From an uncultured Bacilli bacterium (lineage in GTDB: Bacteria > Bacillota_I > Bacilli_A > RF39 > UBA660): DNA of 64,000 nt. Below the pieces are notes generated by a model. It was not told the DNA's origin, searched no databases, and worked only from the letters and a program-made list of their open reading frames with translations. Of this stretch, positions 7,019 to 59,305 are shown one piece after another. Every line of letters starts with the position of its first letter. The first letter of the stretch is position 1. The stretch is taken from contig CAKOXC010000002.1 of NCBI GenBank assembly GCA_934129945.1, positions 53,747 to 117,746 on the forward strand, given 5' to 3'. The translations under genes were made by a program, and so were the position numbers.

Positions 7019-7706
7019 ACCTTTCTATTAGTTTGTTAGAACCCTTAATATTAATTTTACCATTATCAACTAATTTATGTGCATTATCAGTTGTAATTAT
7101 ATCATATTTTAACAATGTATTTAAAGCTTCATAATCTTTATTGCTACTATTATTATCGCCTAAATTTCTAATTTCATTAAAAGCATTATAAGAGTTCTTA
7201 AATCCTGTAGTAAATGGTGTTTTACTTAAAATAATATTAGTATATTTACTATCTTTTAATACTGTACTTGAAAAACTAAATTGAGAAAAAATGAAAAGTA
7301 GTACAAATAAGAATACATATGCTTCTAAAAAACCTACTGCTATTCCAATTAGTTTTGATGGTAAAGTAAGTATTATTGAGTGGTCTACAATTTTACTAAG
7401 GATACCAGTAATTTTTAATATAACACTTAAAAGTACTGATAAAACACCTAATACTATTAAAAAAGCAATTGCTTCATAAATCAAAATATTTATTACCGTT
7501 ATACCATTAAATATGCCCCCAAGTTTAAAAAATGGTAAATACGTATATAAAAATACTGATAAAGGATTTTTCAAATAGTAAGCAATAATTATTATTAATA
7601 TTGTTCCAATTAAAGTTGCAAGTGTTTGAATTGCTCCTCTTTTAAATCCTAATACAGCACCAGCTAATAAAAACAAAATTATTATTACATCTATAACATT
7701 TATCAT
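7002..7706 (-). CDS. cvpA: CvpA-family membrane protein
   Basis: N-terminus MINVIDVIIILFLLAGAVLGFKRGAI typical of CvpA. Multiple TM segments. Confidence 0.55.
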   Translation of the reverse strand: MINVIDVIIILFLLAGAVLGFKRGAIQTLATLIGTILIIIIAYYLKNPLSVFLYTYLPFFKLGGIFNGITVINILIYEAIAFLIVLGVLSVLLSVILKITGILSKIVDHSIILTLPSKLIGIAVGFLEAYVFLFVLLFIFSQFSFSSTVLKDSKYTNIILSKTPFTTGFKNSYNAFNEIRNLGDNNSSNKDYEALNTLLKYDIITTDNAHKLVDNGKINIKGSNKLIERYETND

Positions 7707-9791: not shown

Positions 9792-10681
9792 TTATAATAA
9801 TTTATATTTTCTAGCAATTATTCTATCATCAGAGCAATATTTTATTATATATTCATTATCTTGTTTACATATTATCACTCCAACCGTTTTATTTTCTTCA
9901 ATTGTTTTAATATTTGAATTAATATAATTCATATACATCATAATCTGGCCTATATGCTCTTTTTTTAATTCTGTTACTTTTAATTCAACTACTACATAAC
10001 ACTTATATTTTATATTATAAAGTAATAAATCAATATAATTATATCGGTCATCTAATTTAATTTTATATTCACCACCTATAAAACTAAATGAATTACCAAG
10101 TTCTTTCATAAAAGATTCAATATCTTCCAAAATTAAATTATGTAATGCTTTCTCAGTAACTATTTCAGTATTATTTCTATTTCTAATTAGTATGGGATTT
10201 GGTACTAAATCTTTACTTTAATTTTATCTTTAGAAACTATTTTATTTTTAGTTTCAATTGGCATTCTTTGATATTCCTTGTTTTTAATTTTTTCTCTTAA
10301 TTCTCTTTTAGATAAATTTCTTTCATATGCAATATTAATATAATATATCAATTCATTATCGTCTTTAATTGATAATAATTCAGAATAATGGCTCCAAGAC
10401 AATTTGGTCGCCAGTGGCGACCATTTTTCATTTTTGAATATTCTATAATATTGTCTAATACGTCTCAATGTTCTCTCGTTATACTTTTTCCCAAACTCAA
10501 TAGCCAGTCTATTTGAATAATCATTTAAAATATTATCTCCATACTTACTGCCAGCTTCATCCAGCAATTTACCAACTTCAAAGTATATAATAACTTTATG
10601 CCTTTCTTTTGAATAATCTTTTACTTTTGAATATATTTCATTATCAATTAATTTGTTTTTTATCTCATTGTAATAATTCAT
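9792..10681 (-). pseudogene. YhcG-like (DUF1016) PD-(D/E)XK nuclease split into two ORFs by a frameshift
   Basis: N-terminal DUF1016-like ORF (10205..10681) and C-terminal PDDEXK-like ORF (9792..10130, motif IDLLLYN...VVVELK) lie in different frames. The downstream frame is open back to 10217. A 17-nt local duplication around AAAGAT explains the shift. Confidence 0.6.
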
Positions 10682-10724
10682 GTCTACTCCTTTCTATAGA
10701 CTATAATTTGCAATTCTTAATTTA

Positions 10725-11543
10725 TTATTTTAATTCATTATTATCTTTTTCTAATTCTTTTAAACTTTTTTCTGGTGTTTTTAATTCTTCTGGCATAGTT
10801 CCTCCCAATCTTTTAATACTATTTCTAACTTCTTTACCTACTTCAAAATGAACAGAATTTGCAGTATATTCATTATCCACATTGTCTCTTTTTAATTTAG
10901 CATCAGTTTGAGCAATTCTAAATATATTATCTGCAAGTTCTTCACTACCCATATTATCTAATATATCTTCTCTATATCTAAGTTTCTTTCTTTTAAAAAT
11001 AACATCGGCTGTTTCACCATTATAAAGTCCTTTATATCCCGCATTATGAAATCTTGCTAAATCTTTTACACCAATTTTCACTGCTGTTTTATTTAAATTA
11101 AAATTTCCTTTTCTTGCTTGATTTCTTCTATATAATCTTTTTTCATTTTCTGTCAATTCATTATAATTTTTTTCACTTAGTTCTTGTTTTCTTGTTTGAA
11201 TGGCAAAATAAGTTTGACCTAAAGCAATTATCTTCTTTTTAGGATTAGCATTTTGAACTATTAAATAGCATATATATCTAGTTAATTTATAATCCTTGAT
11301 AAATTCTTCTTTACCTTTGCCATTTTTTATTGGCTTCCTGACTTCAGGAAGCCAATATAAATTATCATTGCTACTATTTTTGTAAGATGCAACTGCTTTC
11401 TTAATTACGTTATTAAAATTTTCCCACTTGCTATATTCAAGCAATGGCATTAATTCTCTTGCTAACCAATATTCTTCACCATTTTTATCTATATGTTTAA
11501 CATTTTCAAATACTTTTTCTGTGTATTTCTTCAATCCATTCAT
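10725..11543 (-). CDS. DinD-like (DNA-damage-inducible protein D family) protein, copy 1
   Basis: Paralog of 58451..59305 (about 60% identical by eye). Likely start ATG 11543 with SD AAAGGAGG. Family assignment from memory of DinD/Bro-N-like proteins. Confidence 0.5.
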   Translation of the reverse strand: MNGLKKYTEKVFENVKHIDKNGEEYWLARELMPLLEYSKWENFNNVIKKAVASYKNSSNDNLYWLPEVRKPIKNGKGKEEFIKDYKLTRYICYLIVQNANPKKKIIALGQTYFAIQTRKQELSEKNYNELTENEKRLYRRNQARKGNFNLNKTAVKIGVKDLARFHNAGYKGLYNGETADVIFKRKKLRYREDILDNMGSEELADNIFRIAQTDAKLKRDNVDNEYTANSVHFEVGKEVRNSIKRLGGTMPEELKTPEKSLKELEKDNNELK

Positions 11544-11559
11544 TTTATCATCCTCCTTT

Positions 11560-13596
11560 CTATGGACTACAAGTCTCAATTTTTAATTTATTATTTTTAA
11601 TTTTAAACATAATACTACCATTTTTATCTGTTCTATATATTTTTGAATCCTGTAATGTATCTAAAACTTCTTTATTCGGATGGCCATACCCATTATTCTT
11701 TCCAACACTGATTATGGAATATTTAGGATTTATATAATCAATAAATTCTTTTCCACTGCTTGTCTTAGAACCATGGTGTCCAATTTTTAATACATCGATA
11801 TCAGATAAATCATAATTATTTATTATATCCTTTTCTCTTGCTATTCCAGCATCTCCCATAAATAAAAATTTATAATTATTTAACTTTGTATAAATAACAT
11901 TGCTATTATTATTTTCATTATCATATTCTTTTGTATTTAAAAAATATAATTTACTATTATTAATATCTAAATTCTGAATACAAGAAGAATATTTAATATT
12001 ATTTTTATCTAATAAATTCATCAAATTTATTTCTAAATCATTATAAGATCCACAATTAAATACCACTTGTTCTACTTTAAAGTCACTAACTAAATTGACT
12101 GCTTCTCCCATATGATCGTAGTCTCCATGAGTAATTATTAATTTTGTAATTTTAGTAATACCAAAACTTTTTAAAAATGTAATTAATTGCTCTGAATCTT
12201 TATATTCTTTTGTTTTTTCTTGCCAGGATTCTTTTTGATAGGTAGTTTTACCACCTGTATCAATCATTACTACGTCTTTGTGTTTTGGACTTATAATTAC
12301 TTCACAATCACCTTGACCTGCATCTAAATAATAAATATAATAGTTGCTATTAAATAAATAACTAAATTTAGTTATTACTACTAAGACTGGTAAAAATAGC
12401 AATAATTTTTTGTTCTTTGTTTTTATAAATAAAATCAGGAAAACATAATATATTAAAATTATAATTAAATTCATTTTACCAGTAGTTATTATAAAAGCTA
12501 ATTTTTCTAATAAAAAATTACTGTATTCTAGTATTACTATTAAGATATGTAAAATACTATCTAAAAATGGAAAAATAAAAGAAAGTAATAAAAATGGGTA
12601 AAGAATATATGAAACAAATGGTACTATTAAAATATTAATAAATATTGAGATTAAATTAAATTCAAAATTATTGTAAAGAGTTATTGGTAAAGACAATAAA
12701 AAAGCAAATATTGAAAGACTTATAATACATTTTGGTTTAATTAAAAATAAACCAAGTGTTATTATAAATGAATATTGGAATCCAACATCTAATATTAAAA
12801 ATGGATTTATTAAAATTAAAATAAAGGCTGTATAAAAAAGTAATTTTGAATTATTAAAATCTTTGAATAAATTTATATTTTTTAAAGTATAAAATATAGT
12901 AACTCTTAAAACAGAAGACGTAAACATTACTAAAAAACTATAAATATATAAAAATATTACGATGAATTTATTATTGAACTTTAATTTATTAAATATAAGA
13001 ATAAGCATGCTTATATGCATGCCTGAAATAGCAAATAAATGGGTTATTCCATTGGTTTTATATAAATTGTATACATTACTCTCTAAAAGGCTTTTATCAC
13101 CTAGGATAAAGGTATAAAAATATTTAGAATCCTTTCTATTATCAATCATTTTTATGATAAAATTCTTTAATTTATAAAAAATATTATTCTTTTTAATTAT
13201 TTTAACTGTCTTTGTATTCATGATAAGATTTATATTTTTAGATTTTAAATATTTTTTATAATTAAAGTTATTAGTAATAGTATTATTAACTGGTTCATTA
13301 ACTGAACCAGTAGTTTTTATAGTATATCCTAACTCAAGATTATTCTCTAAATACTTTTTTTCACTTTCTGTTTTTATATAGTAATTTGCTATTATTTTTT
13401 GTTTATTCTTTAACTGCATTGAAAGTTTATCACCATCTATTTTATAAGCTACTAAAACACCATTAAATTTATCTATATTTAAATTAGAATTTTTTATATT
13501 AAAATTTAGTATAATATAAACAGATAACATTATAAATAAAATAATTAATGTAATATTAGATTGTAATATTTGATTTAATTTTTTCAAACAATGCAT
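11560..13596 (-). CDS. comEC: DNA internalization competence protein ComEC/Rec2
   Basis: 678 aa. N-terminal polytopic membrane region plus C-terminal metallo-beta-lactamase motif (ITHGDYDHMGEA). Overlaps comEA. Confidence 0.85.
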   Translation of the reverse strand: MHCLKKLNQILQSNITLIILFIMLSVYIILNFNIKNSNLNIDKFNGVLVAYKIDGDKLSMQLKNKQKIIANYYIKTESEKKYLENNLELGYTIKTTGSVNEPVNNTITNNFNYKKYLKSKNINLIMNTKTVKIIKKNNIFYKLKNFIIKMIDNRKDSKYFYTFILGDKSLLESNVYNLYKTNGITHLFAISGMHISMLILIFNKLKFNNKFIVIFLYIYSFLVMFTSSVLRVTIFYTLKNINLFKDFNNSKLLFYTAFILILINPFLILDVGFQYSFIITLGLFLIKPKCIISLSIFAFLLSLPITLYNNFEFNLISIFINILIVPFVSYILYPFLLLSFIFPFLDSILHILIVILEYSNFLLEKLAFIITTGKMNLIIILIYYVFLILFIKTKNKKLLLFLPVLVVITKFSYLFNSNYYIYYLDAGQGDCEVIISPKHKDVVMIDTGGKTTYQKESWQEKTKEYKDSEQLITFLKSFGITKITKLIITHGDYDHMGEAVNLVSDFKVEQVVFNCGSYNDLEINLMNLLDKNNIKYSSCIQNLDINNSKLYFLNTKEYDNENNNSNVIYTKLNNYKFLFMGDAGIAREKDIINNYDLSDIDVLKIGHHGSKTSSGKEFIDYINPKYSIISVGKNNGYGHPNKEVLDTLQDSKIYRTDKNGSIMFKIKNNKLKIETCSP

Positions 13597-14317
13597 CTCC
13601 TATACCTGAAACATTTTTTATATCATCAATTGTTTTAAAAGACCCATTAGTATTGCGATATTCAATAATAGCAGTAGCTTTCGATTCACCAATTGAATTT
13701 AATGTCATCAGTTCTTCTTTTGTTGCTGAATTAATTGAAATTAATTTATTTGTATTTTGGCTACCAGAACTTACTTGTTCATTGGATTTTACAGAATTAG
13801 AGTTATCTAAGCTTTTACTTGTAGTTGTATTACTGTTAATAATAGATGCATTATTTTCATTGCATTCATTTATGATAACACTATCACTTGTACATTCACT
13901 ATTACTTGATAAACTATTTCCTTTAGTAATCTGAAGTAACTCATTTTTTGTAAATACTTTAATAACCATTTGATCCTCTAATTTTTTACTTAAATTAAGA
14001 TTACTCGTATCAGCATTCTTTTTTAATCCTCCAGCTAAATTTATTAAATCAATCACATTACTTGTATTTTCCAATTCATAAACACCTGGATTTTTAATAG
14101 CTCCTTTTACATCAACTTTTATTTTATCATTTTGTTTCTTTTCTTCTTCTACATTTTCTTTTAAAGTTTGAATATTTTGATTAGTAGTTTCATTTTTTAT
14201 TGTTCTAACATTAAATGAACGATAAATGAGCACAATTATCCCTGTTAAAAGAAATATAAATAACGATAAACAAATAATATTAAAATAATAGTCAATTATT
14301 TCTTTTATTTTATTCAT
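13556..14317 (-). CDS. comEA: competence protein ComEA (DNA receptor)
   Basis: N-terminal TM, SH3-like/KNPGVY motif, C-terminal tandem helix-hairpin-helix (ISINSATKEELMTLNSIGESKATAII...). Confidence 0.8.
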   Translation of the reverse strand: MNKIKEIIDYYFNIICLSLFIFLLTGIIVLIYRSFNVRTIKNETTNQNIQTLKENVEEEKKQNDKIKVDVKGAIKNPGVYELENTSNVIDLINLAGGLKKNADTSNLNLSKKLEDQMVIKVFTKNELLQITKGNSLSSNSECTSDSVIINECNENNASIINSNTTTSKSLDNSNSVKSNEQVSSGSQNTNKLISINSATKEELMTLNSIGESKATAIIEYRNTNGSFKTIDDIKNVSGIGDALFEKIKSNITI

Positions 14318-14321
14318 TTTT

Positions 14322-14396
14322 TCACCCCCTTCTACTATCTTATTACAAAAAAATGTCTCATTTCCTTTTTTTTCTTATTAATTTCTTAAAAAAATC
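14322..14396 (-). promoter_or_regulatory. conserved promoter/leader cassette, copy 1 (upstream of comEA)
   Basis: Minus-strand reading AAGAAATTAATAAGAAAAAAAAGGAAATGAGACATTTTTTTGTAATAAGATAGTAGAAGGGGG then ATG. Near-identical to copies at 15270..15342 and 34978..35050. Confidence 0.6.
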
Positions 14397-14418
14397 ATTA
14401 AAAAAAAGCAAATATTAA

Positions 14419-15261
14419 CTATTTTGCTATTTTTTTGATTTCAGTAATATTTAGTCCTGTTAATCTAGAAATACTTTCTAAAGGTATTTTTTCATCAAGC
14501 ATTTTCTTTGCTATTTCTATTTGCTTTTGATTAGATCCTTTTTCAATACCTTCTTCAATACCCTCTAATCTTTCACTATTTAAAATCATTTCTTGATCTT
14601 CTTCTGGATCAAATAATATCTCGGCAAATTCTTCTGCACTTAATTTCTTCTTAAACTTTTCCATTATCTTACCCCTTATCTTACTTCCTTGTACAAGTTC
14701 TTCCATTTTTTTAATACTTGTACAATTTAGCATCGCAAGATTCTTTTCTTTCTCGCTAATATTATTATAATCCATTTCTTTATATTTGCCTAGATATATT
14801 TCATGTATTGTTATTTTTTCATCTCTTACTTTATTTTTCTCATCATACATTCTTTTGGTTGTATTTATTATATCTTCATCTATTTCACATAAATAGTTAT
14901 TTATATTTATTTGATATAACTTAAATTCTTTTTTATAGTTCTTATCATATTTAAATATTTGTAATATTACTTTTGCTACATAACATAAATTTCTATTATC
15001 TAGATAATCTCTTTTAAAATTATTAGCTTCAATATTTAAAAATGTATTTGATTCTTTATCTCTTAAACATAAATCTACTCTATTTCTTGTATCTTTTATA
15101 TTTATAACCATCAATTCTTCACTCGTTAAATCAAAGCTATTTAAATCTAACTCGAAGTAATCTTTAAATATTTCATTTAATAATTCTCTAAATTCACTAC
15201 ATTCTTTAAACATACTTTTAAATATACAATCAGTAAGTAATGAGACTTTTTTCATTTGCAT
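14419..15261 (-). CDS. Rpn-family recombination-promoting nuclease / putative transposase (PD-(D/E)XK, YhgA-like), copy 1
   Basis: N-terminal D-x-I-F-K-x-x-F motif (DCIFKSMF), C-terminal EGIEEGIEKG...IAKKML repeat region typical of Rpn/YhgA-like proteins. Confidence 0.55.
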   Translation of the reverse strand: MQMKKVSLLTDCIFKSMFKECSEFRELLNEIFKDYFELDLNSFDLTSEELMVINIKDTRNRVDLCLRDKESNTFLNIEANNFKRDYLDNRNLCYVAKVILQIFKYDKNYKKEFKLYQININNYLCEIDEDIINTTKRMYDEKNKVRDEKITIHEIYLGKYKEMDYNNISEKEKNLAMLNCTSIKKMEELVQGSKIRGKIMEKFKKKLSAEEFAEILFDPEEDQEMILNSERLEGIEEGIEKGSNQKQIEIAKKMLDEKIPLESISRLTGLNITEIKKIAK

Positions 15262-15269
15262 TATTATTG

Positions 15270-15342
15270 CACCTCCTACTATCTTATTACAAAAAAATGT
15301 CTCATTTCCTTTTTTTTCTTATTAATTTCTTAAAAAAATAGC
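15270..15342 (-). promoter_or_regulatory. conserved promoter/leader cassette, copy 2 (upstream of Rpn-family gene)
   Basis: Same ~65-nt core as copy 1, followed by SD GGAGGTG and ATG at 15261. Confidence 0.6.
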
Positions 15343-15356
15343 AATTTCTTGCTAAT
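15331..15356 (-). terminator. intrinsic terminator downstream of SEDS gene
   Basis: TAGCAA-gaaa-TTGCTA hairpin followed by T7 on the minus strand. Confidence 0.55.
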
Positions 15357-16661: not shown

Positions 16662-16850
16662 ATGTATTATTATGGAAACAATGGTTTCTATGGTGGAAGC
16701 CAAATGCCTTATTCTAATCCTTGCTGTAATACAGGTTATGCAGGATATACATCTGGTTACGGAATTGGCGCAGCAATATGGATAGTTCTATTTATCCTTC
16801 TAGTAATAATAATCGGCGCTGGTTGGAACTGGGGAAATAATAACAACTAA
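16662..16850 (+). CDS. YjcZ-like small sporulation membrane protein
   Basis: 62 aa Gly/Tyr-rich N-terminus then hydrophobic segment AIWIVLFILLVIIIGAGW. Strong SD AAGGAGG. Confidence 0.45.
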   Translation: MYYYGNNGFYGGSQMPYSNPCCNTGYAGYTSGYGIGAAIWIVLFILLVIIIGAGWNWGNNNN

Positions 16851-16884: not shown

Positions 16885-17355
16885 TTACTCAAGTTTCGTA
16901 GCACCTGTTACTCCGCCACAATCTTTACTTACAGTCTTAGAACCTTTTGATGAAACTTTATCAGTAGTAATATCTGGTTTTGCATTTTCTATAATATAAT
17001 TGTTATTAGCAAACCATATAGTATAATCTGTAGTACCACTAGACGGATCAATTACTAACTTAACACTACCGGTATATGAATTATCATTCTTCTCCAAAAA
17101 ACCATTTTTTAAGTAATCATAAGTTATGCAAAAAGTATTTCCACTTTTGCCTTGCATAACTGCATCTGCATATGCTGTTTGAGCTGCTCTAATAACCTCA
17201 TTTGCCTCAACTGCAAATGAATTTTTTCTAGCTTTTTCCATTGAACTTAATACTGCTGGCATAGCTATTAAAATAATTATTGCAAGTACTACGATTACTG
17301 CTAATAACTCTACTAATGTAAAACCTTTTTTATTTTTTAAATTTAATTTGTTCAT
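16885..17355 (-). CDS. type IV pilin / competence pseudopilin (ComGC-like) with class III signal peptide
   Basis: Prepilin motif KGFTLVELLAVIVVLAIIILIA (G|FTLVE). 156 aa. Own sigma-A-like promoter TTGACT-18-TATAAT at 17385-17414. Confidence 0.75.
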   Translation of the reverse strand: MNKLNLKNKKGFTLVELLAVIVVLAIIILIAMPAVLSSMEKARKNSFAVEANEVIRAAQTAYADAVMQGKSGNTFCITYDYLKNGFLEKNDNSYTGSVKLVIDPSSGTTDYTIWFANNNYIIENAKPDITTDKVSSKGSKTVSKDCGGVTGATKLE

Positions 17356-30813: not shown

Positions 30814-31239
30814 CTAATTATTTAAAATTAATGTTTCTCTAAAAGGATTAAAACCTAATGAAAGATAAAAGTTTTTAGCGACAATATTGTCACTCATGAC
30901 ATTAATTAAGATTTTGTGAATATTTTTTTCATTAATCACTTTTATTATTTCTGTTACCAATGTTGTTGCAACTTTTTTATTTCTATAACATTCATCAACA
31001 TATAAAGCATCAATTACTGCATCTTCAGCATTTATAATTACATAAACATACCCAACAATTTTATTTTCTTCCTCACATAGGTAAATAATATTGTTCTTCC
31101 CTAAAACATTTTGATAAAAATTTTGTACTTTAAAATTTTTATCTATACTTTTATCATATTTTCTTTCATCCATTATCAATTTTGTAAGCATTGTATCCAA
31201 AATACTACAATCTTCAACATTTGCAAATCTAAAAGTCAT
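30814..31239 (-). CDS. GNAT family N-acetyltransferase
   Basis: 141 aa. Acetyl-CoA binding region YVDECYRNKKVATTL, GNAT fold pattern. Confidence 0.65.
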   Translation of the reverse strand: MTFRFANVEDCSILDTMLTKLIMDERKYDKSIDKNFKVQNFYQNVLGKNNIIYLCEEENKIVGYVYVIINAEDAVIDALYVDECYRNKKVATTLVTEIIKVINEKNIHKILINVMSDNIVAKNFYLSLGFNPFRETLILNN

Positions 31240-31313
31240 TTTTACACCTCATATTTATATTTTATCATAAAAAAAGCAATTGAAGAAACTATTTATCAAT
31301 TACCTTTGTTGTT

Positions 31314-32198
31314 TTAATTTAATTCATTTTGTTTTTTTATCTCATTTATCTTTTCAATTGATAAATTTGTTATTTTAGAAATTGCGTTAATAGCAATTTC
31401 TTCATTTAACATATTTTTTATCGTTTTGATTTTTTCTTGTTCTTGTCCTAATTTAAGTCCTTTTTCTTCACCAAGCTTAATGCCTTTTTCATATCCTGTA
31501 TCTTCTGCTTCTCTTATTAATGAGTTTTGCATCTTTCTTTGATCTTCTTCATGACTCATATATTCTTGAAAAAATGGATCGTTATTTAATATTGTTACAC
31601 TCTCTACATATTTTTCTGATATCTTATCACTTTTTGGCATTTTCTTTAACTCCCCTTCATTTAAATCTAACATTACTAAAAGTTCATTTTCTTTTATCTT
31701 TTTTTCATCCTTACTATACCAAATTTTTTTATAATATTCCATATTTATTTCTATTATTAGTAAATTTTTTACATACACATTTCCATTTTTATCAATTATT
31801 CTAAATTCTCTTTTGCTTTCTTCATAATCGAGTCCCCATGTCAAATTTATTTGAATTATATCAATATCTTGATTACATGTATCACCAACTAAAGCATTAG
31901 TTGAATATACATTACAAATATATGCGGTATTTCTTATATACACATATTCATTAATACTTGCATTTATCTCTATTTCTATCTTTTTATTTGTAGCAAGTAT
32001 TAAGGCGTCTACTCTTTTTGATTTTATTATATTATTACCTACTATTAACTCTGTTGGAAGTATTTTTTTTATTTCTATTTTCACTTTTAATATATCTTCT
32101 AGTAAGGATTCTAGTAAATCTTCATTCTTGGGATTTAAAAATACTTCTTTAAATGTTCTATCATAACGACAACTGTAAAATTTTTGCACCAAAATCAC
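31314..32198 (-). CDS. Rpn-family recombination-promoting nuclease / putative transposase, copy 2 (GTG start)
   Basis: DRTFKEVF N-terminal motif, C-terminal EKGIKLGEEKGLKLGQEQ...IKNMLNE repeats. Begins at GTG with tightly spaced SD. Confidence 0.5.
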   Translation of the reverse strand: MILVQKFYSCRYDRTFKEVFLNPKNEDLLESLLEDILKVKIEIKKILPTELIVGNNIIKSKRVDALILATNKKIEIEINASINEYVYIRNTAYICNVYSTNALVGDTCNQDIDIIQINLTWGLDYEESKREFRIIDKNGNVYVKNLLIIEINMEYYKKIWYSKDEKKIKENELLVMLDLNEGELKKMPKSDKISEKYVESVTILNNDPFFQEYMSHEEDQRKMQNSLIREAEDTGYEKGIKLGEEKGLKLGQEQEKIKTIKNMLNEEIAINAISKITNLSIEKINEIKKQNELN

Positions 32199-32210
32199 CC
32201 TTTCTATCTA

Positions 32211-32243
32211 ATATAAAAAGAGAACATTAAAATTCTCTTTTTA
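32211..32243 (-). terminator. intrinsic terminator closing the bacteriocin operon
   Basis: AAAGAGAA-8nt loop-TTCTCTTT then T-rich run on the minus strand, immediately after peptide B stop. Confidence 0.5.
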
Positions 32244-32396
32244 ACAAAAATTTCTGTTAATCGCTCTTCTTATAGTAGATCCAACAGTTCTTCCAAATTC
32301 TAAAATTGTGTTTACAGCTCTTGCAGCAGCATTTATGTAAGTAGCAGTCCAACTACCACCAGTAATATTAATTAACTCATTTCTTTCTATTTTCAT
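32241..32396 (-). CDS. double-glycine leader bacteriocin-like peptide B (51 aa): MKIERNELINITGG|SWTATYINAAARAVNTILEFGRTVGSTIRRAINRNFC
   Basis: Manually translated. Leader fits LSxxELxxIxGG consensus. ATG overlaps stop of peptide A (TAATG). Not in the ORF track. Confidence 0.6.
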   Translation of the reverse strand: MKIERNELINITGGSWTATYINAAARAVNTILEFGRTVGSTIRRAINRNFC

Positions 32397-32530
32397 TATT
32401 TATTACACTTTAATGGTCTCATAAAGCCATCAAATACTCCTACTATAAAAATTCCAAATCCTGCTATTGCTAACCATAACCCTTTGCCACCACCTGTGAC
32501 ACTGTTTAAATAATCATTACTAAGTTTCAT
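32396..32530 (-). CDS. double-glycine leader bacteriocin-like peptide A (44 aa): MKLSNDYLNSVTGG|GKGLWLAIAGFGIFIVGVFDGFMRPLKCNK
   Basis: Manually translated. Hydrophobic mature part with GxxxG motifs. ATG overlaps stop of orf139 (TAATG). Confidence 0.6.
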   Translation of the reverse strand: MKLSNDYLNSVTGGGKGLWLAIAGFGIFIVGVFDGFMRPLKCNK

Positions 32531-32949
32531 TAACCTAAAACTCCCTTCATTATTTTTTTAATTATCAAATCTTTATTGTAATAAAAAGTTATTTCTACTA
32601 TTTCATTATTTTCTTTCTTCGTTTTATTAGTAAATTGAATCTCTTGAACATTAATATTTCCGTTGCTATAAATATCACTATATTTAAAAGAGTCTAAGAC
32701 AAATAAAGAATTATTAATTTTATATTGATAACTTTGTGATATTTTTTTAGCATTTAAAACATTTTCTGTTAATACAATGTAATTATCTTTTATGATTCCA
32801 TTAGTTATGTATTTATTAGGGATTTTAAAAAAAAGGAAAAAACTAATAATTGACATAACTATGATTAAATAAAAAATAAATATAATTTTCAATTTTTTAT
32901 GTTTTCCATAAACAAAATTCAAATCTTCTAAATTAAGCATTTGCTCCAC
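32530..32949 (-). CDS. single-TM accessory/immunity-like protein of bacteriocin operon (139 aa)
   Basis: One N-terminal TM. Overlaps ABC gene stop and peptide A start; function inferred from position only. Confidence 0.4.
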   Translation of the reverse strand: MEQMLNLEDLNFVYGKHKKLKIIFIFYLIIVMSIISFFLFFKIPNKYITNGIIKDNYIVLTENVLNAKKISQSYQYKINNSLFVLDSFKYSDIYSNGNINVQEIQFTNKTKKENNEIVEITFYYNKDLIIKKIMKGVLG

Positions 32950-34975
32950 CTATTTCTAATACTTCATCAAAATATTCTTCATAATCCTTATGTGTAACAT
33001 AAATTATTGTTTTATTTTTAAGCTTTAAATTAAGTTCTTTTATTATATCTATTTCTAAATTTCTATTAACCTCGCTTAAGGCTTCATCAAGTATCAAAAT
33101 TGATGAATTTTTATATAGAGCTCTTGCAAGGATAATTCTTTGTTTTTCTCCGCCAGATAAATTGTTAAAATTTTTATTAATAAAAGTTTCATAGCGTAAC
33201 GGCTTTTTGCAAACTAATTCTTCTAAATGACATAATTTACATATTTCAGTAAATTTTTTTATATTAAATTCATTATTTAATATAATGTTATTTTTAATAG
33301 TATCGTCAAATAAAAATTCATTTTGTGATAAATATGTAATATTTGATCTAATAGTAGCTAATGGGTAATCAAATATATCTACATTATCTATTGTAATAGT
33401 ACCTTTTTGTAATTCATAGGTTCTATTTAGTAATTTGCAAAACGTCGATTTACCAATTCCACTTTTTCCTTTTATCATAACATGAGAATTTTTTTTGATT
33501 GTGAGGTTGACATCATTTATTATATTGGTATAGTTGTTATAGGAAAATCCTACATTTTTGGCGATTATATCGCCATTTAAAAATGGTTCTTTTAATTCTA
33601 AGTTTTCTTCTTTATTATCCATAAACTCAATATTTTTTTCTAAAGAAGCTTTTAAATAATTACATTTTGGGATTAATTCCATAAAAGATTTAATCGGATC
33701 TATTAAATAAACAAAGACAGATTCAAATGTAATAAAATTTACCAAAGTTATTTTGTCATGAAATAGTAGATAAAAACCAAAAGTTATCAATGTATAATGC
33801 ATTAAATCAAGTACACCATTTTTAAAACTATTTATTAAATTCATAGAACTATTAATTTTAAAAATAGATTTTAAATAATTTATAATGTTTTTTTGCATTT
33901 TAATAATAAAATGACTTTCTAAATTATTATTTTTAATTGATTCAAAAGCATTACAAGATTCACTAATACTTTCATTAAACTTTTCATTACATTCAATGTT
34001 TCTTCTAATTATTCTATAAATAAATTTACTTGTTATTAATGCTATTAAAAGGTAGGAAGTGACAAAAAAACATAATATCATTAATAATTTTGAATTTATA
34101 AAATATAGAACAATAAAAGAACATATAGCTAAAAATAAATTCATAATAGTGCTTATAACTACTTCAGATATTACTTCATGTAGATTATTAAGTTCTAAAA
34201 CTCGAGTTATAATTTCACCTGATGATCTATTTTTAACAATTTTAGAAGGAAGATTAAAAAATTTTTCAAAAAATGCTTCGTTTAAATTATAATTAATATC
34301 TTTTATCAAATAATTCTTATAATAATTACTAATAAATTCAAATATTAATTTACTAAAATATAAAAACAAAAATAAGAATGCTACTGGTTTTAAATAATTT
34401 TGATTATCTAGATTATTGAAACATAATTTAAAATACATACTATTTAAGATGGTTAGAAATGTTATTATAAAACCAGTAATAATAATATTTATAAAAAGTT
34501 TTTTATTATTTTTTATAATATTAGAAATAAACTTGTAAATATTCGTCTCTTCTCTTTTTATAATATTATCTTCTTTAGGATATGCAACTATCACTACTCC
34601 CGTAAAAATTTCATAAAAATCTTGATATTTTATTTTTACTATTCCTTTATAAGGATCCATGAGAGTAATAAAATTTTTACTTAATTTGTAACAAACTACA
34701 TAATGGTTTAAACCATTTTTTAAGGACAAGTGAACAATTGCTGGTAGATTTAATTCTTTATCAATCTTATCTACTTTTAATCCATAGGAATCAAAGCCAT
34801 ATTTTTTTATTGCTTCAACCAAATTATAAGCTGTAGTTCCTGAAATATTGGTATAACAATCATTATGAATTATTTCAAGTGGCACATAACCATTATAATA
34901 TTTTAGTAATGACAAAATACAACATGGTCCGCAGTCTTTGATATCTCTTTGTTTTACTACTTCTATTTTTTGCAT
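32933..34975 (-). CDS. bacteriocin-type ABC exporter with N-terminal C39 peptidase domain (LagD/ComA family)
   Basis: N-terminal QRDIKDCGPCCILSLLKYY (C39 Cys), 6-TM region, C-terminal Walker A GKSGIGKST and LSGGEKQRIILARAL. True start probably ATG 34975 (SD AGAAGGGAGA); track start 35038 reads through the conserved promoter cassette. Confidence 0.8.
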   Translation of the reverse strand: MQKIEVVKQRDIKDCGPCCILSLLKYYNGYVPLEIIHNDCYTNISGTTAYNLVEAIKKYGFDSYGLKVDKIDKELNLPAIVHLSLKNGLNHYVVCYKLSKNFITLMDPYKGIVKIKYQDFYEIFTGVVIVAYPKEDNIIKREETNIYKFISNIIKNNKKLFINIIITGFIITFLTILNSMYFKLCFNNLDNQNYLKPVAFLFLFLYFSKLIFEFISNYYKNYLIKDINYNLNEAFFEKFFNLPSKIVKNRSSGEIITRVLELNNLHEVISEVVISTIMNLFLAICSFIVLYFINSKLLMILCFFVTSYLLIALITSKFIYRIIRRNIECNEKFNESISESCNAFESIKNNNLESHFIIKMQKNIINYLKSIFKINSSMNLINSFKNGVLDLMHYTLITFGFYLLFHDKITLVNFITFESVFVYLIDPIKSFMELIPKCNYLKASLEKNIEFMDNKEENLELKEPFLNGDIIAKNVGFSYNNYTNIINDVNLTIKKNSHVMIKGKSGIGKSTFCKLLNRTYELQKGTITIDNVDIFDYPLATIRSNITYLSQNEFLFDDTIKNNIILNNEFNIKKFTEICKLCHLEELVCKKPLRYETFINKNFNNLSGGEKQRIILARALYKNSSILILDEALSEVNRNLEIDIIKELNLKLKNKTIIYVTHKDYEEYFDEVLEIGGANA

Positions 34976-34977
34976 AT

Positions 34978-35050
34978 TTTTTCTCCCTTCTACTATCTTA
35001 TTACAAAAAAATATCTCATTTCCTTTTTTTTCTTGCAAATTTCTTTAAAA
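34978..35050 (-). promoter_or_regulatory. conserved promoter/leader cassette, copy 3 (upstream of C39-ABC/bacteriocin operon)
   Basis: AAGAAATTTGCAAGAAAAAAAAGGAAATGAGATATTTTTTTGTAATAAGATAGTAGAAGGGAGA then ATG; matches copies 1 and 2. Confidence 0.6.
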
Positions 35051-35053
35051 AAT

Positions 35054-35080
35054 TTAAAAAAATCGTCATTTTCGACGATT
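35054..35080 (-). terminator. intrinsic terminator of upstream membrane-protein gene
   Basis: AATCGTC-gaaaat-GACGATT then T7 on the minus strand. Confidence 0.55.
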
Positions 35081-35797
35081 TTTCTTCTTTTTTGTATTAT
35101 TTTTGTCTTTTTTCATCAAAGAAATTTCTTTTTGTTTGTCTTTACTTAAATTAGGAAAAGCTTTTAATAATCTACCTGGGAATATTTTAAATTTTGCCAT
35201 TCTTTCTTTTAATGTTTTTTCAAATAATAAAGGTATTTTACTTAATTTTTCACTTTTAAGTTCTTCTACTATTATTAATCTGTTACGAAGATTAAATGCA
35301 ACAACACAAGAATATATAATATCAGAAAGTAACAATATAGTTATTAAAATTAATGAAATATTAAAAATGTTGTGTGGTATAAGCATAATAAATTTATCAA
35401 CTAATGGTTCAACTAAATAAATAATTGCTAAAGAACCAAAACCAAACATAATCGAATTTAGTAAACATATTCTTCCATTGATATTATACTTATAATTATT
35501 ATAATCCCACCACATATTATGAAATATTTTTTCAAGTAAAAAACTAGTAAAGTATTCTAATGCAGAACATATAATCATTCCAAACACAAAAACAACTAAT
35601 GGATCACTTTTATATCTTGATAATGCAAATAATATAAATATTGCTCCAAATCCATAGATTGGAATTAATGGTCCACATAAAAAACCTCTAGGACTAAATT
35701 TTTTATCAAGAATAGCACAAAATAATGTTTCACAGATAAACCCGATAAAACTATATAAAAGAAATGTTGTATATAAATAAATAAATACTTTCATCAT
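35066..35797 (-). CDS. polytopic membrane protein (possibly DUF1113/CmpB-like putative ABC-transporter type IV family)
   Basis: 243 aa, about 6 TMs, lysine-rich C-terminal tail. Family assignment tentative. Confidence 0.35.
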   Translation of the reverse strand: MMKVFIYLYTTFLLYSFIGFICETLFCAILDKKFSPRGFLCGPLIPIYGFGAIFILFALSRYKSDPLVVFVFGMIICSALEYFTSFLLEKIFHNMWWDYNNYKYNINGRICLLNSIMFGFGSLAIIYLVEPLVDKFIMLIPHNIFNISLILITILLLSDIIYSCVVAFNLRNRLIIVEELKSEKLSKIPLLFEKTLKERMAKFKIFPGRLLKAFPNLSKDKQKEISLMKKDKNNTKKKKNRRK

Positions 35798-35895
35798 TAG
35801 CTCCCTCTATTTAATAACATTATATCACAAAAATATTTTTTTAGAATAAATAATACTACACATACATATTATGTATTAGATTATTGGAGGAAATT

Positions 35896-36390
35896 ATGAT
35901 AAATAAACAAAGCTTGTGGTTTGTAACACTATTTAGTATGATTTTAGTTTTAAGTATTTATTATGTAACAATGAAAGATGATACACTTGCAACCATTAAA
36001 TCTTTAGATGATATTAAAGAAACTGAAGAAGTTAATGTAACATCAAGTAGTGCTCTTGTTGCTTTAAGAGTTGCAGATGATGAGGAAGTTCTTAAAGAAA
36101 TGGAAGACCTTCAAACAGTTTTACTTGATGATACATCAACAATTGAAGAAAAAAATAACGCTTATGAATCATTACAAACAATCAATACTACTAAAGGTAA
36201 AGAAACTGAAATAGAAGAAAAAATATTAAAAGAATTTAGTTTAGATTCATTTGTTAAAATTAAAAATGATCGAATAAGTATAACAATTGGAAGTAATGAA
36301 CATGATACAAAATTAGCTAATAAAATAATGAATACAGTTCAAAGTATGTATGATGTTAAAATGTATATAACAATTAAATTCCAAAAATAA
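35896..36390 (+). CDS. membrane-anchored hypothetical protein (possibly SpoIIIAH-like sporulation protein)
   Basis: N-terminal TM, acidic middle region. First ATG 35896 with SD GGAGG. Weak similarity pattern only. Confidence 0.3.
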   Translation: MINKQSLWFVTLFSMILVLSIYYVTMKDDTLATIKSLDDIKETEEVNVTSSSALVALRVADDEEVLKEMEDLQTVLLDDTSTIEEKNNAYESLQTINTTKGKETEIEEKILKEFSLDSFVKIKNDRISITIGSNEHDTKLANKIMNTVQSMYDVKMYITIKFQK

Positions 36391-37832: not shown

Positions 37833-37858
37833 AACGTCTTATAAAAGGCGTTTTTTTA
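37833..37858 (+). terminator. intrinsic terminator after tRNA-Arg
   Basis: AACGTCTT-ataa-AAGGCGTT + T7. Confidence 0.6.
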
Positions 37859-37887
37859 TTTTCCTTTTTACATACAAAAAAAGAGCC

Positions 37888-42735: not shown

Positions 42736-43248
42736 TTATTTTGCTAAAACTAATCGAAGACCAATGCTGCTGCCAGCACCACCAGTGATATAAATGAAGC
42801 CGAACTGACCTGCAAGCACACCATTGTCGGAAGTGCCGCCTCGACCGAACCAAGGGTAAGAAGAATCGGCAAAGTTAGAATTGTCATCGTACCAATTATT
42901 ATGTATTCTTGTTTTACTATCGGTATCCTGATAGTAATACAAAGGTCCCATTTCTCCTGTTGCATCTCCTAAAATTCTCTTACTATAAGTAGTTTCAGCA
43001 CTTGAACTATTATATTCGTCATAGTATTTTGAATTGTATGCTTTTAATGATGAATTATCAAATTCAGAACTTCCATATGTTTTACTTCGAAGAGATGCCA
43101 TATATTCCCAAGTTCCACCACTCATATCATAAATTCCTGTGATATTTCCTGTTGTACTTGCTTTATATCCTGTGGTTGTATTATATGGTAAAGTTACACT
43201 TGCATCAGATCCAGCTTCTCCAGGGTATTTACTTATTTTTAGAATCAA
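42736..43248 (-). pseudogene. truncated paralog (C-terminal 160 aa) of the FGE-domain surface protein, fused into the 3' end of dtd
   Basis: About 80% nt identity to 22796-23290. Homology begins at PG..G.DASVTLPYN. The ORF's first 8 codons overlap the dtd 3' end in another frame. GC-rich like the parental 3' end. Confidence 0.55.
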
Positions 43249-58450: not shown

Positions 58451-59305
58451 CTATTTTATTCCTTCAAGTTTCTTTTGCGCTTTTATTTCTAATTTTTTCT
58501 TTTCTTTTTCAAGCTCTTTTAAACTTTTTTCTGGTGTTGGCATTTCTTCAGGCATTATTCCACCAATATCTGCGATTGCTTTTCTAACTTTTTTCCCAAC
58601 CTCATAATGTACATCTTTTGCTTCTTTTTCTCCTTGTACATTATCTTTTAAAAGTTTTTGTTTTGTTTGATTTATTCTAAATAAATTAGCAACTAATTCA
58701 TCTTCATTCATATTATCCAAAATATCTTCTCTATAACGTAATTTTTTTCTTTTAAAAATATCGTCAGCAGTTTCTCCATTATATAATCCTTTATATCCTG
58801 CATTATGAAATTCAGCCATATTTTTAACGCCAGCAGATGAAGCGACCTTTTGTAATGTATAATTACCTTGTCTTGTTAACTTTCTTTGATAAAATCTTTT
58901 TTCATCATCTGATAATGAATCATATTCTTGCTCTGTTATTTCTTGTTTTCTTGTTTGTATAGCAAAATATGTTTGTCCTAAAGCAACAACTTCTTTATTT
59001 GGATCAGCATTTTGTACTATTAAATAACATATATATCTTGAAAGTTTATAATCTTTAATAATTTCTTCTTTGCCTTTACCAGTTTTTATTGGCTTGTTGA
59101 CCTCAACAACCCAATCTTCTTCGCTTGAAACGCTGTTATTTGCTGCTAAAACTGCTTTATCTATTACTTTTTGAAAATTTCTCCAGTCTTTATATTCCAA
59201 TACTTTTTGTAATTCACGCGCATACCAATATTCATTTTCATATTCATCTATATGTTTAATATTCTCAAAAATATTGTTAGTATATCTATCTCCAAGTTTC
59301 TTCAT
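58451..59305 (-). CDS. DinD-like protein, copy 2
   Basis: 284 aa paralog of 10725..11543. Confidence 0.5.
   Translation of the reverse strand: MKKLGDRYTNNIFENIKHIDEYENEYWYARELQKVLEYKDWRNFQKVIDKAVLAANNSVSSEEDWVVEVNKPIKTGKGKEEIIKDYKLSRYICYLIVQNADPNKEVVALGQTYFAIQTRKQEITEQEYDSLSDDEKRFYQRKLTRQGNYTLQKVASSAGVKNMAEFHNAGYKGLYNGETADDIFKRKKLRYREDILDNMNEDELVANLFRINQTKQKLLKDNVQGEKEAKDVHYEVGKKVRKAIADIGGIMPEEMPTPEKSLKELEKEKKKLEIKAQKKLEGIK

What the first reader, a model, noticed from the sequence alone, without database searches (positions are those of the whole stretch)
32241..32530. Unannotated two-peptide (class IIb-like) bacteriocin genes with double-glycine leaders, translationally coupled downstream of a C39-peptidase ABC exporter
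Manual translation of the minus strand gives two short ORFs absent from the ORF track. Peptide A (32396..32530) is MKLSNDYLNSVTGG|GKGLWLAIAGFGIFIVGVFDGFMRPLKCNK. Peptide B (32241..32396) is MKIERNELINITGG|SWTATYINAAARAVNTILEFGRTVGSTIRRAINRNFC. Both leaders fit the L-S-x-x-E-L-x-x-I-x-G-G consensus cleaved by C39 peptidase domains. The mature part of A carries GxxxG motifs typical of two-peptide bacteriocins. The genes overlap each other and the preceding orf139 by TAATG, are followed by an intrinsic terminator, and sit downstream of the LagD/ComA-type exporter driven by conserved cassette copy 3. The mature sequences do not match any bacteriocin I can recall, so this may be a new two-peptide bacteriocin.
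Basis: partly seen in the sequence, partly recalled or inferred. Interest (0 to 1): 0.7.

Follow-up and report, generated by a model that had tools for sequence, protein, structure and literature searches.

The report
Competence-linked two-peptide bacteriocin operon
Two tiny genes beside a peptide-cutting export pump are real and conserved in many uncultured gut bacteria; they look like a new two-part antibacterial toxin, and they share their promoter with DNA-uptake genes, which suggests the cells attack neighbours when they prepare to take up DNA.

Summary
pepA (32396..32530, 44 aa) and pepB (32241..32396, 51 aa) end a four-gene minus-strand operon: C39-peptidase ABC exporter, a 135-aa single-TM protein, pepA, pepB, then a terminator. 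Both peptides have double-glycine leaders. The module is present in all 24 species loci found and in more distant gut contigs. A pepB profile finds 253 unnamed clusters. Mature pepB is under purifying selection (pN/pS 0.00-0.38). Each mature peptide is cationic, with one conserved GxxxG and one near-invariant C-terminal Cys. The window peptides pass no curated bacteriocin model, but three distant pepA relatives pass TIGR03949 (class IIb). So this is a new family of class IIb-like peptides; activity is untested. The new point is the promoter. The repeated cassette has a sigmaH-type -35 box (AAAGGAAAT), is conserved upstream of the exporter across species, and also precedes comEA-comEC here and in four of five other species. 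In this species it also precedes two nuclease genes. The best reading is a competence-coupled (CibAB-like) two-peptide bacteriocin. Immunity, the sigma factor and any killing activity remain inferred.

The parts
34986..35062 (-). Promoter cassette copy 3. It has an A-tract, a -35 box AAAGGAAAT (35026..35018), a 12-nt spacer, a -10-like TGTAAT (35005..35000), and TAGTAGAAGG (34995..34986), which holds the ribosome-binding site.
   Evidence: It is repeat family D4 and aligns with copies 1 and 2. The motif is conserved upstream of the exporter in 21 other species. The -35 box fits the sigmaH consensus RMAGGRWWW given in PMC4754846.
35056..35085 (-). Terminator hairpin of the upstream cmpB-like gene. 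It makes the exporter operon a separate transcription unit.
   Evidence: Terminator scan: 13-pair stem followed by a T-run.
32933..34975 (-). C39-peptidase ABC exporter (PCAT type, 680 aa). It has catalytic Cys15, His91 and Asp107, Walker A at residue 503, the ABC signature at 606 and Walker B at 626.
   Evidence: Pfam domains. NCBIfam TIGR01193 and Mbov_0121-family hits are below their cutoffs. PDB matches are PCAT1 4RY2 (E 8.8e-89) and ComA 8HF7 (E 1.5e-73).
32530..32937 (-). orf139 (135 aa from the ATG): a basic N-terminus, one TM helix, then about 95 residues outside the membrane. It is translationally coupled to the exporter and to pepA. It is a candidate accessory or immunity protein.
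   Evidence: A homologue sits between the exporter and pepA in nearly all species loci (alignment A4). Six of 22 members hit NCBIfam MAG1140_fam, best E 5.9e-5, all below the cutoff. The single-sequence AF2 model is unusable (pLDDT 54).
32396..32530 (-). pepA: 14-aa GG leader (MKLSNDYLNSVTGG) plus a 30-aa mature peptide, GKGLWLAIAGFGIFIVGVFDGFMRPLKCNK. The mature part is hydrophobic (GRAVY 0.81), has net charge +3, a GVFDG motif, and a conserved RPLxC tail.
32241..32396 (-). pepB: 14-aa GG leader (MKIERNELINITGG) plus a 37-aa mature peptide, SWTATYINAAARAVNTILEFGRTVGSTIRRAINRNFC. The mature part is an amphipathic helix (muH 0.73), has net charge +4, a GRTVG motif, and a C-terminal Cys.
32214..32243 (-). 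Intrinsic-terminator-like hairpin that starts at the pepB stop codon.
   Evidence: 12-bp stem, -11.8 kcal/mol, z = -4.1.
14328..14404 (-). Promoter cassette copy 1. It drives comEA (13556..14317) and comEC (11560..13596).
   Evidence: ComEA identity rests on the SLBB and HHH_3 domains of its homologues. ComEC homologues carry the Competence and Lactamase_B domains.
15272..15348 (-). Promoter cassette copy 2. It drives an Rpn-family PD-(D/E)XK gene (14419..15261).
   Evidence: PDDEXK_2 match at E 2.5e-9.

Best explanation
Proposed mechanism. The operon encodes a self-contained two-peptide, class IIb-like bacteriocin system of a previously undescribed family. A promoter with a sigmaH/ComX-type -35 box transcribes exporter, orf139, pepA and pepB as one unit. 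The C39 domain of the ABC exporter cuts both precursors after Gly14 and exports a 30-aa hydrophobic peptide and a 37-aa cationic amphipathic peptide. The two peptides pair helix to helix through their single conserved GxxxG motifs, possibly locked by a disulfide between their conserved C-terminal cysteines, and permeabilise membranes of cells that lack protection. The same promoter type drives comEA-comEC and, in this species, two nuclease genes. The toxin would therefore be made when cells become competent, releasing DNA from neighbours as CibAB does in pneumococcal fratricide. orf139 is either the exporter's accessory subunit or the co-induced immunity protein.

Shown: the genes, leaders, exporter catalytic residues, conservation, purifying selection and the shared promoter motif.

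Inferred: cleavage, export, pairing, the disulfide, killing, which sigma factor acts, and the link to DNA acquisition.
For: Anatomy. The ORFs, the TAATG couplings and the terminator are real. The exporter's C39 residues (DCG Cys, H-x-VV His, DP Asp) align with the same positions of PCAT1. Both leaders have hydrophobic residues at -4/-7/-12 and an invariant GG.

Conservation. The four-gene order is present in all 24 species loci and in distant human-gut contigs at other chromosomal sites. A pepB profile finds 253 clusters at 50% identity. Of the 158 members examined, 155 have a GG-type leader, 154 a GxxxG/S motif and 153 a Cys in the last 10 residues. Mature pepB has pN/pS 0.00-0.38 and the leader 0.08-1.18.

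Class IIb signature. Each mature peptide has one conserved GxxxG (G-x-x-DG in pepA, GRT-x-G in pepB), is cationic and is 30-37 aa long. All 23 pepA homologues hit the lactococcin G-beta family at E<=1, best 35.3 bits against a cutoff of 37. Three distant homologues pass the TIGR03949 class IIb cutoff with 31.6, 29.1 and 26.8 bits against 21.5.

Promoter link. The window holds three near-identical cassette copies, before the exporter, before comEA-comEC and before an Rpn nuclease. The motif AAAGGAAAT-N12/13-TGTAW is conserved before the exporter in 21 other species. A profile built only from those sequences finds the comEA upstream regions of other species (E 1.4e-6, 1.1e-5, 0.012). It also ranks the three window cassettes among the four best window hits. 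comEA carries the full motif in 4 of 5 other species. The -35 box equals the sigmaH consensus used for Listeria comEA and comGA (PMC4754846). Distant module loci keep a canonical -10: ATAGAAT in L040 and TCGAATA in L036. A fourth cassette copy in the same species drives a MvaI/BcnI-family endonuclease.

Precedent. CibAB is ComX-induced (PMC5295010).
Against: There are no activity, cleavage or expression data. The window peptides pass no curated bacteriocin model, and without the leader pepA hits nothing, so the sequence link to class IIb rests largely on the leader and the Gly-rich start. pepB shows only leader-level similarity. No recognisable immunity gene is present. Fixed-locus conservation across many species with strong purifying selection is more typical of core functions than of bacteriocins, which are usually strain-variable. 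The -10 element in this clade (TGTAAT or TGTATAT) departs from the sigmaH RRMGAAW consensus, and no sigma factor gene was identified. The window cassettes score only E 0.02-0.18 with the cross-species profile because of AT bias. One species (L045, L072, L073) has only the -35 box before comEA. The near-identity of cassette copies within this genome could reflect recent duplication and not a shared regulon. A disulfide is uncertain for an anaerobic gut organism.
Confidence: 0.5

Rival explanations
1. It is an ordinary competition bacteriocin with no functional tie to DNA uptake. The shared cassette would reflect a broad stationary-phase or early-sporulation sigmaH-type regulon, or recent promoter duplication or gene conversion. 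It would not reflect a kill-and-take-up programme.
For: Cassette copies 1 and 2 are 100% identical over about 64 nt, including the non-functional spacer. An Rpn gene sits between them, and it is absent at the syntenic site in L044, which looks like duplication. The organism has sporulation genes next door: SpoIIIAH, GerE and GerM. SigmaH serves sporulation in spore formers (established knowledge of Bacillus subtilis).
Against: The motif is conserved before both the exporter operon and comEA in many species whose spacers differ, so the link is not just a recent duplication in one genome. The other two targets in this species are nucleases, which fits a DNA-centred regulon.
Confidence: 0.2
2. 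The peptides are signalling pheromones of the ComC/BlpC kind, processed by a ComA-like exporter. They would form a positive feedback loop on the competence sigma factor.
For: The leader and exporter type are the same as in ComC/ComAB. ComA is the second-best solved homologue (E 1.5e-73). Pfam ComC and NCBIfam ComC/BlpC leader-level hits occur in several family members. The promoter links the operon to competence genes.
Against: No histidine kinase or response regulator lies next to the module in any locus. There are always two peptides, one a 30-aa transmembrane-like helix, each with a GxxxG motif. The mature regions are strongly conserved across species, whereas pheromones typically diversify into pherotypes. 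Distant pepA homologues pass a class IIb bacteriocin model.
Confidence: 0.12
3. The peptides are non-toxic, cell-intrinsic small membrane peptides delivered by the ABC exporter. They would serve the producer's own envelope during competence or sporulation, for example a controlled permeability or autolysis step.
For: Conservation is core-like, with a fixed locus in many species, strong purifying selection and no immunity gene.
Against: No precedent is known to me for GG-leader peptides with such a role. The module also occurs at other chromosomal sites in distant relatives. Some loci carry extra pepB paralogues or a third small ORF. That kind of variation is typical of toxin/immunity loci.
Confidence: 0.1

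Closest known systems
CibABC of Streptococcus pneumoniae (competence-induced two-peptide bacteriocin, fratricide)
   Same: Both are two-peptide bacteriocin-type genes placed under the promoter type that drives late DNA-uptake genes (PMC5295010). The logic of killing non-induced neighbours is also shared.
   Different: Here the exporter and a small TM protein lie inside the same operon. The promoter has a sigmaH-like -35 box instead of a ComX com-box. No CibC-like immunity gene is recognisable. The host is an uncultured low-GC gut lineage of Bacilli that carries sporulation genes.
Lactococcin G / enterocin 1071 (class IIb; NF038034, NF038035, PF11632)
   Same: Both have a GG leader and two complementary helical peptides with GxxxG motifs. 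All 23 pepA homologues give hits to the G-beta model.
   Different: All scores fall below the curated cutoffs (best 35.3 against 37; window pepA 16). The mature part alone gives no significant hit: none for the window peptide and E 0.086 for one relative. Gene order differs, and the conserved C-terminal Cys is not a feature of that family as far as I know.
Lactobin A / cerein 7B family (TIGR03949, class IIb)
   Same: Distant pepA homologues (L040, L036 and L029 types) pass the curated cutoff over nearly the whole model.
   Different: The window pepA does not reach E<=1 against this model. The pepB partner family has no counterpart in it.
PCAT1 (4RY2) and ComA (8HF7) peptidase-containing ABC transporters
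   Same: Full-length homology (E 8.8e-89 and 1.5e-73), the same three-domain architecture, and the same catalytic Cys, His and Asp.
   Different: The exporter is below the curated cutoffs of TIGR01193 and of the mycoplasma Mbov_0121 family. It is always paired with a protein of roughly 135-157 aa, not with a roughly 450-aa HlyD-type accessory protein (that size is from general knowledge).
Mycoplasma pair: Mbov_0121-family C39 ABC transporter plus MAG1140-family protein (NCBIfam NF045998, NF045999)
   Same: The exporter scores 312 bits against NF045998. orf139 homologues align over the full length of the 126-position MAG1140 model.
   Different: Both are below their cutoffs (500 and 35 bits). 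No function is published for the mycoplasma pair in the library searched. Whether mycoplasmas have GG-leader peptides beside it was not tested.

Membership tests
Class IIb (two-peptide, unmodified) bacteriocins | Two adjacent small peptide genes in one operon | tested here: met
   The pair is conserved in 24 species.
Class IIb (two-peptide, unmodified) bacteriocins | Double-glycine leader on both peptides (GG at -2/-1, hydrophobic residues at -4, -7 and -12) | tested here: met
   Alignments. The GG columns are invariant, and 155 of 158 pepB family members have such a leader.
Class IIb (two-peptide, unmodified) bacteriocins | Dedicated C39-peptidase ABC exporter with the catalytic Cys, His and Asp | tested here: met
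Class IIb (two-peptide, unmodified) bacteriocins | GxxxG-type helix-helix motif in both mature peptides, which are cationic and 25-40 aa long | tested here: met
   GVFDG in pepA and GRTVG in pepB, both conserved. Net charges are +3 and +4 and lengths 30 and 37 aa.
Class IIb (two-peptide, unmodified) bacteriocins | Cognate immunity gene in the operon | tested here: inconclusive
   orf139 is the only candidate and matches no immunity family. A third small TM ORF follows pepB only in distant loci.
Class IIb (two-peptide, unmodified) bacteriocins | Antimicrobial activity that needs both peptides | not testable with these tools
   This requires synthesis or expression followed by bioassay.
TIGR03949 lactobin A/cerein 7B family | HMM score at or above the curated cutoff (21.5 bits) | tested here: not met
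   The window pepA gives no hit at E<=1. Relatives score 31.6, 29.1 and 26.8 bits.
Lactococcin G-beta/enterocin 1071B (NF038034, PF11632) | HMM score at or above the curated cutoff (37 and 29.4 bits) | tested here: not met
   The window pepA scores 16.0 and 16.7 bits. The best relative scores 35.3 bits.
ComC/BlpC-type peptide pheromones | Single short pheromone gene next to a histidine kinase/response regulator pair, plus a family HMM match | tested here: not met
   No kinase or regulator lies next to the module in any locus. The window peptides give no ComC or BlpC hit. Relatives give leader-only hits far below the cutoffs.
SigmaH/ComX-dependent competence promoters | -35 box RMAGGRWWW | tested here: met
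   AAAGGAAAT is present in all three window copies and in most exporter and comEA upstream regions. The consensus comes from PMC4754846.
SigmaH/ComX-dependent competence promoters | -10 box RRMGAAW placed 11-12 nt downstream of the -35 box | tested here: not met
   The window has TGTAATA after 12 nt, and its clade has TGTATAT. Distant module loci do have ATAGAAT (L040) and TCGAATA (L036).
SigmaH/ComX-dependent competence promoters | Transcription depends on a sigmaH or ComX orthologue | not testable with these tools
   No sigma factor turned up among the 26 window ORFs scanned against Pfam; most ORFs were not scanned. An experiment or a whole-genome analysis is needed.

The most novel reading that the evidence does not exclude
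A whole group of uncultured, low-GC gut Bacilli (from rumen, mouse, rabbit and human) carries a vertically conserved predation module wired into the competence sigma regulon. It would consist of a disulfide-linked heterodimeric two-peptide toxin with its own exporter, with orf139 as the co-induced immunity protein. It would be co-expressed with the DNA receptor/channel ComEA-ComEC and with nucleases that process prey DNA. That would make bacteriocin-assisted DNA acquisition an ancestral, core trait outside the streptococci.
Probability: 0.2. Interest if true: 0.8.

Novelty: new variant of a known kind. Interest (0 to 1): 0.6.

Why it matters
Coupling of bacteriocin production to natural competence is experimentally established, as far as I know, essentially in streptococci. 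Full-text searches here found no description of it outside that genus. This locus suggests the same strategy in an unrelated, uncultured group of gut Bacilli, using a sigmaH-type promoter and a new peptide family. It provides three things to work with. First, two short synthesizable peptide sequences, and a family of more than 250 sequence clusters, to test as narrow-spectrum antimicrobials. Second, a conserved promoter motif that can be used to define the competence regulon of organisms nobody has grown. Third, a testable structural oddity: one invariant cysteine at the C-terminal end of each partner.

Tried and rejected
- Chance ORFs: rejected on conservation and pN/pS.
- Known RNA element in the cassette or operon: Rfam found nothing relevant in 31000..36000.
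- Defence-system reading: PADLOC gave only generic ABC and restriction-enzyme hits.
- Mobile origin: pepB has no tblastn match in 72,556 plasmids or 50,697 phages.
- Solved-structure relatives of the peptides: none by sequence.
- AF2 on a natural in-frame pepA-pepB fusion (P0121): it predicts one helix per mature part (pLDDT about 80, pTM 0.47) but says nothing reliable about pairing.
- Names for homologues: none of the 10 clusters looked up carries a functional name.
- Type IV pilin gene at 16885..17355 as another cassette target: it has an ordinary TTGACT-N17-TATAAT promoter.
- A sigma factor gene in the window: none among the 26 ORFs scanned.
- cmpB-like upstream gene (PF06541) as an immunity candidate: a terminator separates it from the operon, it is absent from distant module loci, and the literature search was uninformative.
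- Comparing the comEA and exporter promoters within a second genome: the L071 genome has no module at the syntenic site.

Full report
OBSERVATION. pepA is 32396..32530 (44 aa) and pepB is 32241..32396 (51 aa). The orf139 stop overlaps the pepA start, and the pepA stop overlaps the pepB start, each as TAATG. orf139 most likely begins at the ATG at 32937, which overlaps the exporter stop by 8 nt. The exporter most likely begins at the ATG at 34975 (680 aa), the length of most homologues. A 12-bp hairpin begins at the pepB stop (-11.8 kcal/mol, z = -4.1). Window G+C is 24.6%. Long ORFs are intact with translation table 11.

THE EXPORTER. The 680-aa protein has Peptidase_C39, ABC_membrane and ABC_tran domains. 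Its best solved homologues are PCAT1 (4RY2, E 8.8e-89) and pneumococcal ComA (8HF7, E 1.5e-73). In the PCAT1 alignment its Cys15, His91 and Asp107 sit at PCAT1's DCG, H-x-VV and DP positions, the conserved C39 motifs. Walker A, the ABC signature and Walker B are also present. It is therefore a catalytically competent peptidase-containing ABC transporter. It stays below the curated cutoffs of TIGR01193 and of the mycoplasma Mbov_0121 family.

THE PEPTIDES ARE REAL GENES OF A LARGE UNNAMED FAMILY. Word-indexed searches found 5 pepA and 15 pepB clusters, none with a name. A genome scan with the pepB alignment found 24 species-level MAGs from rumen, mouse and rabbit, labelled uncultured Bacilli, Tenericutes or Erysipelotrichaceae. 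The closest is the rumen MAG RUG14121 at 95-98% protein identity. In every locus the order exporter, TM protein of about 140 aa, pepA, pepB is kept, with exporter identity down to 30%. An exhaustive profile search with pepB found 253 clusters at 50% identity with E<=1e-3. Of the 158 members examined:
- 155 have a GG-type leader;
- 154 have a GxxxG/S motif;
- 153 have a Cys in the last ten residues;
- 131 have exactly one Cys in the mature part.
Two distant members from human-gut contigs sit in the same four-gene module at a different chromosomal site, next to rpsU and yqeY. None of the ten clusters looked up carries a functional name. Codon analysis of pepB gives pN/pS of 0.00-0.38 for the mature part, against 0.08-1.18 for the leader, at synonymous divergence up to 0.77. 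So the mature peptide is the constrained part.

WHAT KIND OF PEPTIDES. Both leaders are 14 aa long, with hydrophobic residues at -4, -7 and -12 and an invariant GG. Mature pepA is 30 aa, hydrophobic (GRAVY 0.81) and carries net charge +3. Its conserved signature is F..G..DG..RPL.C. Mature pepB is 37 aa, has pI 11.4, and forms a strongly amphipathic helix (muH 0.73). Its conserved signature is GRT.GS.I.R......C. Each peptide thus has one conserved GxxxG motif and one near-invariant Cys near the C-terminus.

Against curated models, the window pepA gives only sub-threshold lactococcin G-beta hits (16-17 bits), and pepB gives nothing. At family level the picture is clearer. All 23 pepA homologues hit the lactococcin G-beta model at E<=1, the best with 35.3 bits against a cutoff of 37. 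Eighteen hit TIGR03949, the class IIb lactobin A/cerein 7B family. Three distant homologues pass its curated cutoff with 31.6, 29.1 and 26.8 bits against 21.5. Sixteen hit Pfam Bacteriocin_IIc. With the leader removed the similarity disappears, so the link is real but shallow. pepB relatives show only leader-level hits. No solved bacteriocin is related by sequence. I conclude that this is a new family pair of class IIb-like peptides. It is not a member of any described family.

THE PROMOTER CHANGES THE PICTURE.
- copy 3 lies before the exporter;
- copy 1 lies before comEA (13556..14317) and comEC (11560..13596);
- copy 2 lies before an Rpn-family PD-(D/E)XK gene (14419..15261).
Each copy reads A-tract, AAAGGAAAT, 12 nt, TGTAAT, 4 nt, TAGTAG(A/G)AGG, then ATG.

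Upstream of the exporter in 21 other species the same architecture is conserved, with species-specific spacers: AAAAAAGGAAAT, 12-13 nt, TGTATATAT, AGGAGG. The -35 element equals the sigmaH consensus RMAGGRWWW used for the Listeria comEA, comGA and coiA promoters (PMC4754846). The -10 element of this clade (TGTAW) differs from RRMGAAW. However, two distant module loci carry ATAGAAT 11 nt downstream (L040) and TCGAATA (L036).

A profile built only from exporter-upstream sequences of other species was searched against the window plus four comEA loci. It found the comEA upstream regions of three other species (E 1.4e-6, 1.1e-5, 0.012). It also placed the three window cassettes among the four best window hits, at E 0.02-0.18, weakened by AT bias. 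Direct reading shows the full motif before comEA in four of five other species, and only the -35 box in the fifth.

A metagenome scan with a degenerate pattern recovered the same-species exporter, comEA and Rpn copies. It also recovered a fourth copy, which drives a solitary MvaI/BcnI-family endonuclease (Pfam E 8.4e-38). An ordinary gene nearby, the type IV pilin, has a plain TTGACT-N17-TATAAT promoter. So the motif is not the housekeeping promoter of this organism.

MECHANISM PROPOSED. When the alternative sigma factor is active, the cell makes the DNA receptor and channel (ComEA, ComEC), two nucleases, and this operon. The exporter cleaves both precursors after Gly14 and secretes them. The two helices pair through their GxxxG motifs and insert into target membranes. 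The conserved terminal cysteines may link them. Cells not expressing the regulon would be lysed and would release DNA. This is the logic of pneumococcal CibAB fratricide, which is ComX-driven (PMC5295010).

The steps that are shown are gene structure, catalytic residues, conservation, selection and the shared motif. The steps that are inferred are everything biochemical and physiological, and the identity of the sigma factor.

orf139 is the open question. Its translational coupling to the exporter, and its full-length though sub-threshold similarity to the MAG1140 family, favour an accessory role. MAG1140 is the NCBIfam entry adjacent to the mycoplasma C39-ABC family (6 of 22 members hit it, best E 5.9e-5). 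The fratricide logic, on the other hand, needs a co-induced immunity protein, and orf139 is the only candidate in the operon.

RIVALS. (a) A bacteriocin without a functional tie to DNA uptake. This is supported by the 100% identity of cassette copies 1 and 2, and by the Rpn gene between them that is absent at the syntenic site of L044, both of which look like duplication. Against it, the motif is shared across species with different spacers. (b) A pheromone pair. The exporter type and the competence link fit. Against it stand the absence of a kinase/regulator pair, the transmembrane-like 30-aa partner, the GxxxG motifs and the conserved mature regions. (c) A cell-intrinsic membrane function. 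This is suggested by the core-like conservation and the missing immunity gene, but there is no precedent. Extra pepB paralogues and third ORFs in some loci also look like toxin/immunity variation.

NOVELTY AND SCORE. The kind of system is known: a GG-leader two-peptide bacteriocin with a PCAT exporter, and competence-coupled bacteriocins in streptococci. The new elements are the peptide family, the paired invariant cysteines, the small partner protein, the vertical conservation across an uncultured gut lineage, and the sigmaH-type promoter shared with comEA-comEC and nucleases. Literature searches found no such description outside streptococci. I rate it a new variant of a known kind, with interest 0.6.

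Noticed in passing
window 14296-15348 (minus strand); L044 1823-3100: Cassette copies 1 and 2 are 100% identical over about 64 nt and flank an Rpn/PDDEXK_2 gene (14419..15261). In the syntenic locus L044, ftsW is followed directly by the promoter and comEA. The Rpn gene plus a second promoter copy therefore look like an insertion or duplication.
   Followed up: partly
L052 2308-3101; L050 10698-11488: A fourth copy of the cassette in the same species drives a solitary MvaI/BcnI-family restriction-endonuclease-like gene (246 aa). No methyltransferase lies beside it, and tRNA-like sequence follows.
   Followed up: partly
window 31314-32198 (-): A second Rpn-family PD-(D/E)XK gene lies directly after the pepB terminator. 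It is present in the same species (L012, L053) but not in L013, where ygjP follows pepB. It shares only 25% identity with the Rpn gene at 14419..15261.
   Followed up: partly
L029 1166-1339; L036 7153-7332; L040 about 7170-7320; L021 5440-5580: Some relatives carry a third small ORF after pepB. It has no GG leader and one TM helix, and its C-terminal motif G..IGTF.R......C resembles that of pepB, so it may be a decoy-type immunity protein. L021 has an extra pepB paralogue that lacks the terminal Cys.
   Followed up: no
protein P0121: In one metagenomic representative, a pepA-like and a pepB-like peptide are fused in frame, with the second leader retained. The single-sequence AF2 model gives one helix per mature part (pLDDT about 80).
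   Followed up: partly
window 9792-11579 (-); 58451-59305 (-): After comEC come a Bro-N domain gene (10725..11579) and a YhcG PD-(D/E)XK nuclease split into DUF1016_N (10205..10681) and YhcG_C (9792..10130). An intact YhcG gene follows comEC in L046 and L071. The Bro-N gene has a paralogue at 58451..59305 (72-78% nt identity; repeats D2, D3, D6).
   Followed up: partly
L044 3001-3066: The called ATG start of comEA in this NCBI MAG lies inside the promoter motif. The conserved N-terminus (NKIKN...) begins after an ATA codon, so the true start is probably mis-called or non-canonical.
   Followed up: no
L046/L071 9940-10000: In this species about 45 nt separate the conserved TAGTAGAAGGGG block from the comEA ribosome-binding site. 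They can form a GC-rich hairpin (GAAGGGGT...ACCCCTTC). The block is therefore not only an RBS and may mark the start of the transcript.
   Followed up: no
window 16662-16850 (+): A 62-aa Gly/Tyr-rich ORF with a C-terminal TM helix resembles YjcZ-type small sporulation proteins. This resemblance is recalled from memory and was not tested.
   Followed up: no
window 37840-37880 (-): A weak match to the promoter profile (E 0.083) lies between efp and a tRNA-like sequence. It has AAAAGGAAAAT but no TGTAW element and is probably chance.
   Followed up: no
window 22796-23095 and 42736-43035: A 300-nt direct repeat (78% identity) links the 3' end of a 650-aa gene of unknown function (no Pfam hit) to a 170-aa ORF that has a weak FGE-sulfatase-like match.
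   Followed up: no
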